This document shows, piece after piece, positions 4,600 to 63,059 of a stretch of 64,000 nt of DNA; positions within the stretch are counted from its first letter, which is position 1, and each line of letters starts with the position of its first letter. The position numbers were made by a program, and so were the translations under genes. The stretch comes from Rhynchobatus australiae (Eukaryota): positions 43,379,718 to 43,443,717 of the forward strand of contig JAUZTB010000048.1 in assembly GCA_034780895.1 (NCBI GenBank). Reading direction: 5' to 3'. The notes beneath the pieces were generated by a model. That model ran no database searches, was not told the DNA's origin, and saw only the letters and a list, made by a program, of their open reading frames with translations.

Positions 4600-5160
4600 C
4601 AGCACCATGGCACAGATGCTAGAGGCAATGGATTCATAGATCGAGAAATCAGTTCAATCCTGACCTCAGTTGCTGTCTGTGTGGAGTTTGCGCATTCTCA
4701 CTGTGACTGCGTGGGTTTCTTCCCATATCCCAAAGACATGCTGGTCGATAGGTTAATTGGCCATTGTAGATTGCCATGATTGGGTGGTAAAATCTGGAGT
4801 TGAATGTGGGGAAAAATGAAGCAAAATAAAAAGGAAATTAGATTAAAACACAAAGGAGCTGGAGGAACTCAGCAGGTCAGGCAGCATCTATGAAGGGAAA
4901 TGGACAGTCGACATTTCAGGTGGAGACCCTTCATCAGGATGAAACATTGACTGTCCAAACGTCTGACCCAAAATGTCGACTGTCCATTTCCCTCCATAGA
5001 TGCTGCCTGACCTGTTGAGTTCCTCCAGCTCCTTTGTGTGTTGCTCCAGATTTCCAGCATCTGCAGTCTCTTCTGTCTCCAAAAATTGGATTAGTGTAAA
5101 TGAGTGGTTGATGGCCCGTATGGGCTGAAGGTCCTATTTCCATGCTGTATCTCCCTATGA
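4600..5160 (+). mobile_element. HE1-like V-SINE with CR1-type tail, interrupted by a fold-back PLE-derived element
   Basis: B-box agttcaatcc, V-domain gtggagtttgcgcattctc, tail gggctgaaggtcctatttccatgctgtat resuming near 5083. Confidence 0.7.
4848..5080. mobile_element. Fold-back non-autonomous Penelope-derived element with a hammerhead motif
   Basis: Inverted arms 4848-4916 and 4971-5039 (69 bp, 2 mismatches); minus-strand CTGATGA...GAAA core; candidate TSD aaatt(a/g)gatta at 4835-4845 and 5083-5093. Confidence 0.75.
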
Positions 5161-7602
5161 ATGTTTGATTCTATCCTGGTGAATCTCATCTGCACCTTGT
5201 CCAGTGCAACCACATCCTCATAGTGTGGTGACCACAACTGTACACAAAGCTACAGCCATGACCTAACCTATGTTTTTTAAAGGCTTACCTCCTTGCTATA
5301 ACCCCCTTGCTCTTTTATTCTATACCCCAGTTAATGATGGCATGTATCCTGTATGCCACCTTATCTGCTGTACTGCCATCTTGAGGGATCCTTGGATTTG
5401 TACACCAAGGTTCCTCTGTTCCTCGATACTCTCAAGGACCCACCATTCATTAAATTCCATCTGCCATTGCTCTGTCCTTCTTGCCAACTGATCAGTATCA
5501 TCTTGTGCCCTCAACTATCCCTCCTCACCATCAAAAGTACCACCAAGTTTCATGTCGTCTGCAAGTTTATTCATCATACCCATTATATTTATATCAAATT
5601 ATCAATGTTCATAACAAGCAATAAAGATCCCTGGACACAGGCTTCCAATCACAAAAACAGCTGTCCACCTTCACCCACTGTCTCCTGTTACCAAGTCATG
5701 ATATGTCCTTTCTGAAGTGAGGTACTAAGAGTGAATATTGCACGCTCTGCTTGAGTAAGATTTTGTAAAGCTAAAGTGGAGCTCTTATTTTTTTTAAATC
5801 CTATTCCATTGACATAGAGATCAACATTTCATTAACTTCTCTTTTTGTATCTTTGGAAGGAGTTAATCTGTGAAGGCCAAGTATTTTGTGAAGGGAAGCA
5901 GAGTTGCTAGAGCGATGACTCTGATCAACGGTGTGCAAGAGAAGATAAATATGGAAAAGGAATAACAGGAGGAGGTTATTCAGTCTTCAAGTCTATTCTG
6001 CTGTTCAGTTAGATTAGGGTTATTTTGTGCATTAACTCCATTTGCCTGCTCCACAGACTTTTAACCAATACTTTTACATCAGTCTTGGTTTTAAAGTTTT
6101 CACTCATCCTCCAGCCTCCACAGCACCTTGATCAGAACACCTCTTATCTGTACTCTTAAATATAATGCAAATCTTTGTAATATTTTCACATTTTAACTCC
6201 TTTTGCCCTGACATCATAACCATGATTCTCGCCCTAAGCCGTTTTGGATCTCTCTAGATAGATTAGCTAAAATTCCTTCTCCATAATTGTTTTGGGCTCA
6301 TAGAGCCATGCTGCATAGAAACACCCTCTGGCCCATTGTGTCCATACCAACCATCAAGTAGCCGTCTGTACTAATCCCTTTGCCAGCACTTGGTCCATAG
6401 CCTTCCATACCTTGGCAATTCAAGTGCTCGTGTAGATGCTTTAAGAAAAGTCAATCTGTAACACTGCTTCAAGTTACACCCTTGAGAACTAGTAAGCAAG
6501 AATGATACTAGCAAAGCATAGCAGAAAAGTATATATAATATTGGTTTTCCCATTAAGAATCTAATATTTTGTTTTTACAATGGGCCATTTCTATTCTGTT
6601 TCTAAGTTTGAATCTTTTTTGTCTCAGCGGACTTCATAATAATCAACTCAAACAAGGCATTGAGAGGGAGGAACTGAAAAGAATGCAGAAATACTTCACG
6701 CTTTCCAAGAGTTATGAAAATTATTAAACTGGCAGCCATGTGTTTGGTAAAAAGTAGTGCAGACAAGAAGCTATGAATACTTATAAACTTCAGTAAGTTC
6801 CTACGAACAAAGCATTGGTCCCAGCAGTTTGTGAGCTATGTGGGAAAGCATCCAAATTGCTAATTATTGCTTATGGAACTGCAGATCAGCTGCTGCTTCT
6901 ATGGATCAAGCCTTTTTCACTTCACAGTGACCCAAAAGCAGTAGTACCAAGTCTCTGGTTCTCTCTGGAGAGAATTAAAGCTAACCTGGTTGGGACTCAT
7001 TCTGTGACTTAGACTGGTGTGTAGAATAAATTAACTGTTCTGCATAGACCCTTGTATTCTGGAAATATGTGCAGGTGTCCTTGGGTCTCAGTGTAAAAAG
7101 GGTGAATTTGAAAGATGAAATGCTTTTTTTCCCCAAGTAGGATAGAATTAACTCGAGGCGTTGGAATTCATATGACCTGTCAACAAATGATGAATTGCTT
7201 CCCTGACCAGATCTTCATAGTGTCAGAGTTACTTAATTGAGATTTATGGCTCTGTACAGCACCTAGATACGTGCTTTTAAAAGAAAACCTTGTTAACAAA
7301 AAGCTGTTTCATGCTGCATCGGTGAAGCCAGCCATTTTAGTCAGCTGTTGCTGTTGACTGTTTTCTATAAACTGTCCTGCACTAAACATTTCCTTTTCAA
7401 ATTGTTACTAAACTGGTTGGGCAGGTTTTACTTTGATAGGTTTAACTAACGTCTGGGAGTTAACAGCAGTGCTTNNNNNNNNNNNNNNNNNNNNNNNNNN
7501 NNNNNNNNNNNNNNNNNNNNNNNNNNNNNNNNNNNNNNNNNNNNNNNNNNNNNNNNNNNNNNNNNNNNNNNNNNCTTTATGCATCTGTGTTTCCTTTTAC
7601 AG

Positions 7603-7754
7603 GTATTTCCCGGCCCCGTTCTGACAGTGCTCCTCCAACTCCAGTGAATAGGCTGAGCATGCCACAGGCAAGCAGTACAATGAACACAACACCCCCTCAC
7701 AGCAGAAGGATGCGATCTGTTACTGTTACAAAGGCAACTGTTAAAACAGGCTCA
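7603..7754 (+). CDS. RALGAPB: RALGAPB internal coding exon (1st in window): (G)[20 protein letters not shown]...KATVKTGS
   Basis: Acceptor ttttacAG, donor GTAAGC; phase 1 to 0; peptide matches vertebrate RALGAPB as I recall it ([21 protein letters not shown]). Confidence 0.96.
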
Positions 7755-7959
7755 GTAAGCTGCTGCCATTTTACTTCCTTTATGTTCAGTGTTGTACCAT
7801 TTCTTTGGTCACCTTGGCCCTCACCAGCACCTGATCCAGCTGGGTTCATCTAAAGTTTTGGTCCAAACTGTCATCTGCACCACTCTAGGATACCACCATT
7901 GGTGTAAAGTTTGTAATGACAGGATATATGAACAATTCTTCAGATTCATGCAAACCTTA

Positions 7960-61474: not shown

Positions 61475-61930
61475 AATCTCAGAATCAGATTTATTATCAC
61501 TGACTTAGATGACGTGAAATTTGTTGTTTTGCTGCAGCAGTACAGTGTAAAGACAAAATTACTATAAATTACAAAAATAAATGATGCAAAAAGAAATAAC
61601 GAGGTACAGTTCATGGATGGTTCAGAAATCTGGTGACAGAGGGGAAGAAGCTTTCTGAATCGTTGAGTGTGGATCTTCAGGCTCCTGTACCTCTTCCCTG
61701 ATGGTAGTAACGAGGAAAGGGCATGTCCTGGGCGGTGAGGGTCCTCAGTAATGGATGCCACCTTCTTGAAGCACCACCTCTTGAAGATGCCCTCGATGGT
61801 GGGGAGGGTTGTGCATGTGATGGAGCTGGCTGAGTCTACAACCCTCTGCAGCCTCGTGCGATCCTGTGCATTGGAGCCTCCATACCAGGCGGTGATGCAA
61901 CCAGTCAGAATGATCTCCTCCATACATGCT
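61475..61930 (-). mobile_element. Rex1/Babar LINE 3' fragment, relatively young
   Basis: ORF 61447..61923 (-) ILTGCITAWYG...RLQRVVDSASSI...DPHRPGHALSSLLPSGKRYRSLK; tail aataaatctgattctg. Confidence 0.88.
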
Positions 61931-62063
61931 GGAGCAAGAGATGTGTCTGAGCTGTTTCATGTACTTATGCGCAAGTGAGTTTGTCTTTTAATTTCTGCCT
62001 TGCTTCTCGTATGTTGCAGGTTGTAACCAAAAACTCTCTATTTTCAATTTCTCTCTTCTAAAG

Positions 62064-62172
62064 CCAAGTCCAACACAGAAAACCAAGAAGCTGCCACTTG
62101 GCCGCACAGTACCTCCACTGGGCCCTGAAACCAAGGTTATTGTTGTGTGGGTCGAACGCTTTGATGATATAG
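62064..62172 (+). CDS. RALGAPB: RALGAPB coding exon (last in window): [36 protein letters not shown]
   Basis: Pyrimidine tract with aAG acceptor, GTATAG donor; 109 nt, phase 0 to 1. The exact acceptor is slightly less certain. Confidence 0.9.
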
Positions 62173-63059
62173 GTATAGTATTGTTTTACTAAGAGCTTTC
62201 GTACAACCCTGCATTACTGCACCATCATATGCCACTGTGTGTTACCGGTCTCAGTTACTTGTGCACTTAGCTCAGCTCATTGTACTATGAAATAATTTTT
62301 TAAACTTAGCCTCCCATGCTGCAAAAATTATAGTCCCTACTTTAGGAGCATCTTGTTATATATGTAGCACTAAGAATTTGCATCTGTAAAGCACCAATAC
62401 CATTGCAAAAGCATCCTAAAACATTTCATGGAAGTGTTATCAGACAATAGATTGATGCCAAGCTATTTAGGGGGACTTGAGAGCAAGTGATCAAAAGCTT
62501 ATTCAAGGTGATTTCTTAAAGGAGTAAAGAGACGTGAAGAGGTTGAGGAAAAGAATTCCAGGACTGCTGGACTCTCAGCACCGACAAATTAAATTCAGGG
62601 ATGTTCAGGAGGCCAGAAATGGAGGAGTGCGGATCTCTCGGGTAGTCGTCAGAAGTTGTAGGGCCAGATTAGATTACAGAAAAAGGGAGATCAAGACCAT
62701 AGATTTATTTGGAAACATGATTAAGAATTCTTGAAACTGAACTCCAGCCCTGAGAGAAGGTTAGCATAAGTCAGCCAGCACAAGGGCGATGGGTGGACTG
62801 GACAGTGTGGGCTTGGATCTGAGGTTTTGTTGAAGTAGAAGTAAGGATGCCTGCCAGGAGGACATTGAAACAACCGAGACCAAGATAATAAAGGATGAGG
62901 GTTTCAGGAGCAGATTAAGTGTTGCAGGAATACAGTTGGGCAATTGGTGATAATATTGAAAACCAAACCTGCAGATGCCAGAAATTAGAAATATAAATAG
63001 AAATACTCAGCAAGATAGAGAGAAATGGTGACACAACCACAGCCTGGGTTCAGACTATT

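What the first reader, a model, noticed from the sequence alone, without database searches (positions are those of the whole stretch)
4848..63030. Window-wide family of hammerhead-bearing Penelope-derived short elements (about 10 copies, at least two age classes)
Seen: the same ctgcagatgctgg...cagcaggtcaggcagcatct module recurs at about 4848-5080, 18985-19155, 22005-22145, 22690-22790, 24495-24640, 34640-34840, 45760-45865, 47630-48095, 48290-48690, 55965-56070, 59570-59700 and 62960-63030. The best copies (22106-22143 minus, 4905-4940 minus, 59566-59603 plus) combine into CAGUC CUGAUGA A GGG..CCC GAAA CG UC GACUG, with perfect stem I complementarity (CAGUC/GACUG) at 22106-22143. Older copies show GAAAC(A/G)UUAAC variants. 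Inference: a very abundant chondrichthyan non-autonomous element spreads ribozyme motifs genome-wide, analogous to metazoan non-LTR retrozymes. PLE hammerheads are known in general; whether this family has been described I cannot tell.
Basis: partly seen in the sequence, partly recalled or inferred. Interest (0 to 1): 0.72.

Follow-up and report, generated by a model that had tools for sequence, protein, structure and literature searches.

The report
Penelope transposon ends carrying minimal hammerheads
The repeat is real: it is the short, decayed tail end of a Penelope-type retrotransposon, scattered through a vertebrate RalGAP-beta gene and carrying the minimal hammerhead ribozyme motif already known from such elements, so it is a new family of a known kind rather than a new kind of element.

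Summary
Observation confirmed. There are 12 loci (18 arms); 11 loci reach E<0.01. Three arms keep all 11 hammerhead core bases, against 0 in 12 shuffles. None is fully intact, so the quoted motif is a composite.

Penelope origin is shown in the window. A decayed GIY-YIG endonuclease end (47223-47613) lies about 50 nt upstream of one module. Four loci are head-to-head pairs, three with a 35-40-nt tail on one arm only. Three have 9-14-nt flanking duplications. The motif is the published helix-III-less, dimer-dependent PLE hammerhead. Two subfamilies exist. Two exons of a RALGAPB gene bracket most copies.

The retrozyme analogy is not supported: no tandem array, and at least 12 of 18 arms run across the cleavage site. 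A dedicated short template is not excluded, because 5' ends cluster at the hammerhead's 5' edge.

Open leads: a splice-acceptor-like site in helix I, as in Drosophila Penelope; a two-hammerhead unit 339 nt long; very high density. Taxon and Repbase/Dfam status were not testable. New member of a known kind; interest 0.32.

The parts
47223..47613 (+). Decayed 3' end of a Penelope-like ORF: remnant of the cysteine linker plus GIY-YIG endonuclease, in three frames (two frameshifts), stop at 47611-47613
   Evidence: 16 relatives at E<=1e-3; tblastn E 3e-16 with P0005 and 3e-13 with P0010; E 4e-5 with P0017, a full-length RT plus GIY-YIG protein; reversed-window control empty
47657..47781 (+). Module H1 (older class), C3 at 47663, about 50 nt after the ORF stop; core 8 of 11
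   Evidence: E 5e-4 from the 4-arm seed
47782..47995 (+). Pyrimidine-rich spacer between H1 and H2; shared in order with locus I, and at its 3' part with locus D
   Evidence: H vs I spacer: 0 of 1000 base shuffles and 3 of 1000 block shuffles reach the score; H vs D E 2.4e-5 including the module. Caveat: it also aligns to CR1-like DNA at about 37700-37850
47996..48110 (+). Module H2, C3 at 48002, core 11 of 11 but stems decayed; predicted cleavage after 48030, 339 nt from that of H1
48298..48700 (-). Locus I: second copy of the two-module 3' region (I2 about 48576-48680, spacer, I1 48298-48389 with its hammerhead deleted and a full tail)
   Evidence: (E 0.0011)
4846..5082 (.). Locus A, young head-to-head pair: arm A1 (4846-4939, minus, core 11 of 11, short end), a small third fragment (about 4941-4959, plus), arm A2 (about 4960-5082, plus, with a tail of about 38 nt)
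   Evidence: arms 94% identical; flanking repeat 4835-4845 / 5083-5093, 10 of 11, p 0.079
18985..19160 (.). Locus S, old head-to-head pair (S1 minus, S2 plus), heavily decayed
   Evidence: S2 E 0.0012 before it entered the profile, S1 best E 0.01; tail asymmetry inconclusive
22008..22143 (-). Locus B, young single arm with tail; perfect 5-bp stem I and intact helix III palindrome, but core changes at A9 and G12; predicted cleavage after 22111
   Evidence: (z -2.58, 2 of 200 shuffles)
22679..22870 (-). Locus D, older arm with about 90 nt of upstream 3' UTR; branch-point-like CTAAC, pyrimidine tract and CAG acceptor-like site ending at 22775, inside stem I; C3 at 22772
   Evidence: top score of 8126 AG sites under a post hoc acceptor score
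24492..24646 (.). Locus E, older head-to-head unit: E1 (minus, short end) joined to E2 (plus, tail only)
   Evidence: E1 E 1e-8; E2 tail 18.9 bits, not in training; exact 9-nt flanking repeat 24483-24491 / 24647-24655, p 0.010
34640..34846 (.). Locus F, older head-to-head pair: F1 (minus, short end, internal deletion in the hammerhead) and F2 (plus, with tail)
45758..45878 (-). Locus G, older single arm with tail
   Evidence: E 2.7e-7
55955..56075 (-). Locus J, older single arm
   Evidence: E 2e-10 before it entered the profile; tail 15.9 bits
59570..59696 (+). Locus C, young single arm, core 11 of 11, helix III palindrome broken; starts 1-2 nt before C3; predicted cleavage after 59598
   Evidence: flanking repeat 59556-59569 / 59697-59710, 13 of 14, reached by none of up to 300 random flanks
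62966..63049 (-). Locus K, 3' fragment with tail, no recognisable hammerhead
   Evidence: best E 0.017; 16.8 bits
13076..13277 (+). Host exon, RALGAPB (Ral GTPase-activating protein subunit beta), matching about residues 506-582 of the PDB chain
   Evidence: PDB 9qwp_B E 7.8e-33; splice sites read
50254..50463 (+). Host exon, RALGAPB, residues 1088-1158 of the PDB chain
   Evidence: PDB 9qwp_B E 4e-24

Best explanation
The module is the 3'-terminal pseudo-LTR plus tail of an endonuclease-bearing Penelope-like retrotransposon (PLE), probably of the Neptune clade, left by at least two subfamilies in a vertebrate RALGAPB gene. Shown: the link to a GIY-YIG ORF end, the head-to-head pairs, the one-sided tail, some flanking duplications, and the minimal hammerhead with no intramolecular helix III. 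Inferred from PLE biochemistry (PMC11167929): the PLE protein nicked both DNA strands and began reverse transcription at one of two internal sites about 35-40 nt apart (short end or tail end) on uncleaved RNA. Most cDNAs then ended after 100-140 nt, at or near the 5' edge of the hammerhead, and a second priming event on the other strand gave the inverted arm. The hammerhead served the source element: weak, dimer- or protein-dependent self-cleavage, via the ACGU palindrome pairing between two motifs. The genomic copies are passengers that decay by CpG loss and are most likely inactive.
For: GIY-YIG remnant ending about 50 nt before module H1. A second, independent locus, protein P0003, reads as the antisense module fused to the same endonuclease (tblastn E 0.005 and 0.039; modest). 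4 of 12 loci are head-to-head; in 3 of these 4 only one arm carries the tail, as described for PLEs (PMC8557442). Flanking direct repeats in 3 of 11 units examined. The motif fits the published consensus, including the CGUC and CGUU variants (PMC4209133 supplement). 11 of 18 arms have the GAAAC box 26-33 nt before the body and one more has the CUGAUGA box, so templates were uncleaved, as found in vitro for the anole PLE. As monomers, all 5 real copies folded prefer a non-hammerhead fold, e.g. -14.1 vs -9.5 kcal/mol for B. 8 of 11 departures in young hammerheads are CpG transitions (my count; two are shared by the arms of one insertion).
Against: No RT-coding remnant of the PLE is in the window (best E 0.56), and Pfam does not recognise the window fragments themselves (0 families). 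Only the older class is physically joined to the ORF here; for the young class the link rests on module homology (58% mean identity) and P0003. 8 of 11 units show no flanking duplication. The 5' ends are not spread out as random truncation predicts: 7 of 10 arms tested start within -10 to +16 of C3 against a profile with 100 nt of upstream sequence. Covariation support is weak (see full report).
Confidence: 0.62

Rival explanations
1. Same PLE origin, but the 130-140-nt copies come from a discrete short template: solo pseudo-LTR transcripts, or the 5' end of the (possibly spliced) PLE mRNA, that begin at the hammerhead's 5' edge and are copied by PLE protein starting internally at the tail. 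This is a SINE-like, non-autonomous mode and the nearest defensible form of the first reader's idea.
For: Three young arms are firmly bounded within a few bases of C3: C by its flanking duplication, A1 by the inversion junction, B by a duplicated host segment. 7 of 10 arms start at -10 to +16. That edge coincides with an acceptor-like AG in copy D. In Drosophila virilis Penelope the intron ends 4-5 nt before C3.
Against: A spliced template should carry a shared first exon (46 nt in D. virilis); none is shared upstream of the 3 young arms. 4 arms (D, H1, H2, I2) do extend upstream. The 38-nt hammerhead hairpin could itself be a stop or fold-back site. The acceptor score was designed after seeing D.
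Confidence: 0.27
2. Retrozyme-like route: a source element with two hammerhead modules 339 nt apart (H1 and H2) cleaved as an intramolecular double hammerhead, released a roughly 340-nt RNA that circularised, and was re-inserted by PLE RT.
For: H and I share the order module, spacer, module. Minimal hammerheads need a partner (PMC4209133). One chondrichthyan genome gave retrozyme families averaging 363 bp (bioRxiv 10.64898/2026.07.22.740005).
Against: No tandem array. H1 and H2 are 62% identical with different upstream contexts. H and I are about 180 nt apart and may be one event. PLEs tend to insert next to older copies (PMC6765202), which gives the same layout. Part of the spacer resembles CR1 DNA. 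Copy ends do not fall at the cleavage site.
Confidence: 0.07
3. The module belongs to a non-PLE repeat (a SINE or LINE 3' end), and the hammerhead and the neighbouring endonuclease remnant are coincidences.
For: Rfam gives no hit. Whole-module folds are not better than shuffles (89, 33, 198 and 18 of 200). Only one locus touches the ORF.
Against: 3 intact cores vs 0 in 12 shuffles; PLE-type inverted and tail architecture; P0003; ARAGORN finds no tRNA gene.
Confidence: 0.04

Closest known systems
Minimal type I hammerheads (min-HHR) in PLE pseudo-LTRs (Cervera and de la Pena 2014, PMC4209133)
   Same: CUGANGA plus one extra base, stem II, GAAA, palindromic 15.2/16.2 with no helix III loop, short stem I, U-rich upstream. 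Mostly single dispersed motifs from truncated PLEs, and opposite-strand pairs close together. Thousands per genome in coelacanth (about 4,000) and Xenopus (about 9,000).
   Different: None of the listed motifs in the supplement parts I read is from a cartilaginous fish. Stem II here is short (4-5 bp). The older class appears to close stem II with A-U or G-U rather than G-C (4, 3 and 2 of 11). Apparent density is far higher, from one window and a looser descriptor.
Neptune-clade endonuclease-bearing PLEs (clade features from PMC8557442)
   Same: C-terminal GIY-YIG preceded by a CX2-5CXXC linker in the closest relatives (P0004, P0005, P0010, P0017); 5' truncation, inverted 5' copies, 30-40-bp tail at one end.
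   Different: The window copy keeps 2 of 3 linker cysteines and has no RT, so clade placement is by resemblance only; Nematis also has a linker. One locus has two diverged modules in its 3' region.
Anolis Poseidon element PAc (PMC11167929)
   Same: Hammerhead shortly upstream of two internal RT start sites that define the tail; uncleaved RNA is the insertion substrate.
   Different: A different PLE clade. In PAc the ORF starts inside the hammerhead; no ORF start was identified in this module.
Metazoan non-LTR retrozymes (PMC7229834; bioRxiv 10.64898/2026.07.22.740005)
   Same: Short, non-coding, type I hammerhead, PLE-related, GC under 50%.
   Different: Retrozymes are tandem repeats of 150-450 bp that yield circular RNA. 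Here copies are solo or head-to-head, 100-140 nt, with ends unrelated to the cleavage site.
Drosophila virilis Penelope 5' UTR intron (PMC2377424; PMC4209133)
   Same: A 3' splice site at the 5' edge of helix I (here only predicted: AG ends 2 nt before C3 in copy D).
   Different: No donor site, first exon or transcript evidence here; the fly hammerhead has a small helix III.

Membership tests
Endonuclease-bearing Penelope-like element | C-terminal GIY-YIG endonuclease upstream of the terminal repeat | tested here: met
   47223-47613; joined to the older class only
Endonuclease-bearing Penelope-like element | Telomerase-like RT in the same ORF | tested here: inconclusive
   Absent from this truncated copy (best E 0.56); present in relative P0017 with its DKG motif
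Endonuclease-bearing Penelope-like element | Hammerhead motif in the pseudo-LTR | tested here: met
Endonuclease-bearing Penelope-like element | Inverted 5'-truncated copy next to the insertion | tested here: met
   4 of 12 loci
Endonuclease-bearing Penelope-like element | 30-40-bp tail at one end only | tested here: met
   3 of 4 inverted pairs; S inconclusive; the A2 and F2 tails were in the training set, E2 was not
Neptune clade | CX2-5CXXC linker between RT and endonuclease | tested here: inconclusive
   Intact in 4 relatives, 2 of 3 cysteines in the window copy
Neptune clade | Placement by RT phylogeny | not testable with these tools
   No RT in the window and no labelled PLE reference set
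PLE minimal hammerhead | 11 core bases with stems I and II in type I order | tested here: met
   3 of 11 aligned arms have 11 of 11; 0 in 12 shuffles
PLE minimal hammerhead | Palindromic 15.1-16.1 tetramer, no helix III loop | tested here: met
   ACGU in B; others differ mostly by CpG-type changes
PLE minimal hammerhead | Compensatory changes in stems I and II | tested here: inconclusive
   Covariation 0.371, 3 of 500 shuffles, best of 7 registers; but the two main changes separate two subfamilies, one event each
PLE minimal hammerhead | Self-cleavage as a dimer or with protein | not testable with these tools
   Needs an in vitro assay
Non-LTR retrozyme | Head-to-tail tandem units of 150-450 bp, each with a hammerhead | tested here: not met
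   No such array; the one direct pair is 62% identical with different contexts; one window only
Non-LTR retrozyme | Canonical type I hammerhead with helix III and loop contacts (2020 definition; the 2026 preprint also admits minimal motifs) | tested here: not met
   No helix III loop; no Rfam hit
Non-LTR retrozyme | Monomer-length circular RNA joined at the cleavage site | not testable with these tools
   No RNA data; DNA ends do not map to the site
Described chondrichthyan repeat family (Repbase/Dfam) | Sequence match to a deposited consensus; chondrichthyan host | not testable with these tools
   No repeat library or animal genomes available; the host taxon is recalled, not tested

The most novel reading that the evidence does not exclude
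This lineage may hold the densest set of hammerhead motifs in a vertebrate genome (10-144 intact cores per Mb, 95% interval from 3 in 60.8 kb). They would be made by a PLE whose pseudo-LTR has a spliceosomal acceptor inside helix I, as in Drosophila Penelope, so that short copies mark the RNA's splice or start boundary. The source element would carry two hammerheads 339 nt apart, able to act as a built-in double hammerhead: a retrozyme precursor caught inside its parent PLE. This would link intron retention, internal RT initiation and retrozyme birth in one vertebrate family and make each testable from genome data.
Probability: 0.15. Interest if true: 0.62.

Novelty: new member of a known kind. 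Interest (0 to 1): 0.32.

Why it matters
As established, it matters modestly. It extends PLE minimal hammerheads to another vertebrate family and shows PLE insertion anatomy clearly in a small space. PLE hammerheads are already known to be massive and widespread in animal genomes (PMC4209133), and a PLE expansion in shark introns has been reported (bioRxiv 10.1101/443036). What could matter more: the copy number may be large enough to map RT start sites and 5' ends statistically in a non-Poseidon PLE, which tests the internal-initiation model outside the one element studied in vitro. A conserved acceptor at helix I would tie the intron-retention puzzle of PLEs to the ribozyme. Head-to-head pairs put long double-stranded RNA into host pre-mRNA if they are intronic (locus A folds at -155 kcal/mol with 96 paired positions), a possible editing or back-splicing substrate (inference).

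Tried and rejected
Rfam: no hammerhead; 2 unrelated matches at E 0.07 and 0.69. ARAGORN: 0 genes. Tandem Repeats Finder: 2 unrelated arrays.

More copies from outside: the one scan of prokaryotic genome contigs gave 3 hits, all chance matches of about 22-28 nt in DNA of 66-69% GC; plasmids gave no match. Metagenome and viral contigs were closed and stay unchecked.

Protein word searches: the window's endonuclease fragment and the translated module found nothing. Pfam found 0 families in the 3 PLE fragments. Sources and organisms of P0001-P0016 stayed unknown.

One search used a stem I register off by one and is void; one search is the valid count.

Upstream extension of singles G, J, K, C, B into the H spacer or ORF end: 0 of 10 comparisons significant (low power for old copies). 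A module-1 copy upstream of D: not found. A splice donor in H: none.

A 3' hairpin (GAUGCUG with CAGCAUC) appears in the fold of A2 but whole-module folds do not beat shuffles; kept as a lead only.

The covariance model found 14 matches: the 11 training arms and 3 in known loci, no new locus.

Literature: searches found no paper describing this family; the sequence-string search gave 8 unrelated papers by their titles. Lunse et al. on dimer cleavage is not held.

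
Full report
VERDICT. The repeat and its hammerhead motif are real. The repeat is the 3' end (pseudo-LTR plus tail) of an endonuclease-bearing Penelope-like element (PLE), and the motif is the known PLE minimal hammerhead. The retrozyme analogy is not supported in this window. 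It is a new member of a known kind, with three open leads.

1. SETTING. The window is vertebrate genomic DNA with 18 runs of N (3,207 bases) and CpG at 0.19 of expectation. Two exons on the plus strand match Ral GTPase-activating protein subunit beta: 13076-13277 (E 7.8e-33) and 50254-50463 (E 4e-24). 8 of the 12 loci lie between these exons. The other 4 are probably intronic too, since about 500 residues precede and 370 follow the two exons (inference; other exons were not mapped). That the host is a shark or ray fits my recollection of this repeat but was not testable.

2. THE OBSERVATION. A profile seeded on 4 arms and iterated three times gave E<0.01 for 14 of 18 arms and 11 of 12 loci, with no hit at E<=1 on the reversed window. 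The four weaker arms have partial separate support: I2 (E 0.0011 from locus H), E2 (tail score 18.9 bits; flanking repeat), K (16.8 bits), S1 (E 0.01). Together with the ORF remnant the family covers about 4.7% of non-N bases. Four arms (A1, A2, B, C) are 82-94% identical, ten older arms 38-80%, and many diagnostic columns separate the groups; tree support for the young group is 80/86, below the tool's bar. The four arms S1, E2, I1 and K were not in that alignment.

3. THE HAMMERHEAD. A descriptor requiring 11 core bases, stem II of at least 3 bp and stem I of at least 2 bp, with 15.2/16.2 free, hits 4937(-), 48002(+) and 59571(+), and nothing in 12 dinucleotide shuffles. At two mismatches the descriptor is not specific (12 hits against 1-11 in shuffles). 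The layout matches the published consensus for PLE minimal hammerheads. No copy is complete. B has the 5-bp stem I and the ACGU palindrome but changes at A9 and G12. C has ACAU. A1 and H2 have AUGU and weak stems. In C and A1 the 5' strand of stem I is flank or junction DNA. All 5 real copies folded prefer a non-hammerhead monomer fold; for B the rod is -14.1 against -9.5 kcal/mol. Only B beats shuffles (2 of 200; C 32, A1 179, H2 186 of 200). In the young arms 8 of 11 departures from the majority in the hammerhead are CpG-type transitions (my count), which reads as decay.

Covariation on 11 arms: 67.3% of cells paired (8 of 500 shuffles as high), score 0.371 (3 of 500), best of 7 registers; pairs with double changes 47 of 500. 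The two main changes are C-G to U-A at the inner stem I pair and G-C to A-U at the base of stem II. Each separates the subfamilies, so each is one event, and the tool warns that related sequences beat shuffles in 5-25% of unconstrained cases. This is supportive but weak. One search used a wrong register and is void. Rfam has no hit.

4. PROOF OF PLE ORIGIN. Upstream of module H1, 47223-47613 encodes a frameshifted GIY-YIG endonuclease end. Pfam did not recognise the fragments, but a full-library search found 16 relatives; 7 of the 16 match Pfam GIY-YIG at E<=0.05, 1 of them above the curated cut-off. They align back in three frames at E down to 3e-16. A relative of one of them, P0017 (893 aa), holds RT, the DKG motif, a cysteine linker and GIY-YIG and hits the same place at E 4e-5, with an empty reversed control. 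The linker points to Neptune (or Nematis) by the criteria in PMC8557442; the window keeps 2 of 3 cysteines. No PLE RT remnant is in the window. P0003 begins with what reads as the antisense young module and continues into the endonuclease (E 0.005 and 0.039), as expected of an inverted copy fused to a truncated ORF at another locus.

Insertion anatomy agrees. Loci A, S, E and F are head-to-head. In A, E and F one arm stops short and the other carries 35-40 nt more; S is inconclusive. Direct repeats abut C (13 of 14), E (9 of 9, p 0.010) and A (10 of 11, p 0.079); 8 of 11 units examined have none, and H was not examined.

5. HOW IT WORKS. Established elsewhere: the anole PLE protein cuts both strands and starts reverse transcription at two internal sites that define the tail; its hammerhead cleaves only with protein and is not needed for insertion; uncleaved RNA is the main substrate (PMC11167929). 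Minimal hammerheads are inactive alone and weak as dimers (PMC4209133). Seen here: two classes of 3' end, and at least 12 of 18 arms crossing the cleavage site, with none seen to start at it (by eye). Inferred: these copies are short cDNAs from uncleaved PLE RNA, primed at either internal site, sometimes on both strands. The ribozyme mattered to the source element only. Confidence 0.62.

6. WHAT DOES NOT FIT. The 5' ends cluster. With a profile that includes 100 nt of upstream sequence, 7 of 10 arms start at -10 to +16 of C3, while I1 does match the upstream part, F1 starts at +32 and K gives no hit. C and A1 start 1-2 nt before C3, and B no more than 9 nt before. In copy D this edge is an acceptor-like site (CTAAC, pyrimidine tract, CAG ending at 22775), the top score among 8,126 AG sites; the two real RALGAPB acceptors rank in the top 1.2% and 2.4%. 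The score was built after seeing D, other AGs in this T-rich module also score in the top 0.5-2.4%, and H2 has lost the AG. In D. virilis Penelope the intron ends at 491 and C3 is at 496. A spliced template should show a shared first exon, and none is seen. So a defined short template is possible (0.27) but unproven.

Second, locus H has two modules with cleavage sites 339 nt apart, and locus I repeats the order (pre-module 0 of 300 shuffles; spacer 3 of 1000 block shuffles). H and I are only 59% identical and adjacent, the spacer also resembles CR1 DNA, and PLEs tend to insert beside older copies (PMC6765202). A built-in double hammerhead is therefore a minority reading (0.07).

7. ABUNDANCE. 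12 loci in 60.8 kb is 197 per Mb (95% interval 102-345); 3 intact cores is 49 per Mb (10-144). In a 3-Gb genome that would be 30,000-430,000 cores, against about 4,000 in coelacanth and 9,000 in Xenopus. This comes from one window, an unknown genome size and a looser descriptor, so it is a lead only.

8. WHAT IS KNOWN. Papers and what I saw: PMC4209133, main text parts 1-2 of 4, supplement file 2 parts 1-2 of 3 plus a term search, file 1 not searchable. bioRxiv 10.64898/2026.07.22.740005, parts 1-3 of 5 and passages; it sampled one unnamed chondrichthyan and its supplements, which I could not see, may list this family. PMC11167929, parts 1-2 of 4. Passages only: PMC8557442, PMC7229834, PMC6765202, PMC2377424, PMC6155905, PMC9004415, bioRxiv 10.1101/443036 (Penelope-like expansion in whale shark introns). 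bioRxiv 10.1101/2025.06.08.657570: term search, 0 hits (75). Lunse et al.: title in a reference list only (76, 77). Ten searches found no description of this family's hammerhead. The library lacks most subscription papers, and Repbase and Dfam could not be checked, so the family may well be deposited as a Penelope or Neptune repeat.

9. SCORES. Observation confirmed; interpretation partly supported; novelty: new member of a known kind; interest 0.32. Most novel reading: probability 0.15, interest 0.62 if true.

Noticed in passing
window 13076-13277 and 50254-50463 (+): Exons of a RALGAPB gene; about 37 kb separates residues 582 and 1088, so introns are long. Intervening exons were not mapped.
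   Followed up: partly
window 22148-22222 vs 21413-21487: A 75-nt inverted duplicate (93% identical) abuts the 5' end of copy B; it may be a template switch during insertion or another small repeat.
   Followed up: partly
window 4941-4959 (+): A third short fragment of the module (GAAA box to just past stem I) sits in the centre of palindrome A, suggesting a template jump.
   Followed up: partly
window 4835-5093, 34630-34856: Head-to-head pairs fold into long RNA hairpins (-155 and -77 kcal/mol); possible double-stranded RNA editing or back-splicing substrates in the host transcript.
   Followed up: no
window 5049(+), 24611(+), 34821(+), 45775(-), 55980(-), 47649(+), 48662(-): Further acceptor-like AG sites inside the tail and just upstream of module type 1 score in the top 0.5-2.4% of AGs; sense-strand copies could be exonised.
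   Followed up: partly
window 47817-47965 vs about 37700-37850: Part of the H spacer aligns to CR1-like DNA (E 0.0059; score 50 vs shuffle maximum 46). The CR1 label is recalled.
   Followed up: partly
window 9090-9475, 52511-52691, 63597-63740: Non-LTR reverse transcriptase remnants (tblastn with P0007), with many multi-copy LINE-like 3' ends elsewhere.
   Followed up: no
window 49372-49647 (-) and 61450-61956 (-): The first frame matches Pfam PF09004 (E 5e-10); the second looks related by eye but had no Pfam match. Probably ends of a LINE ORF (recalled), not an ALKBH8 gene.
   Followed up: no
window 15459, 20637, 1666 (+) and 25222 (+): Weak tail-like scores (15.6, 12.3 and 11.0 bits; E about 0.09); possibly further decayed fragments, not counted.
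   Followed up: partly
window 46490-46533 / 46634-46677 and 60737-60761 / 60862-60886: Short direct duplicates on both sides of 100-N gaps; likely assembly artefacts.
   Followed up: no
window 22335-22434 and 41027-41079: A 32-nt tandem repeat of 3.1 copies and a 53-nt imperfect palindrome, unrelated to the module as far as seen.
   Followed up: no
protein P0003, residues 9-44: An unnamed database protein that seems to be a mistranslated antisense module fused to a PLE endonuclease; several other hits look like gene models fused to this endonuclease.
   Followed up: partly
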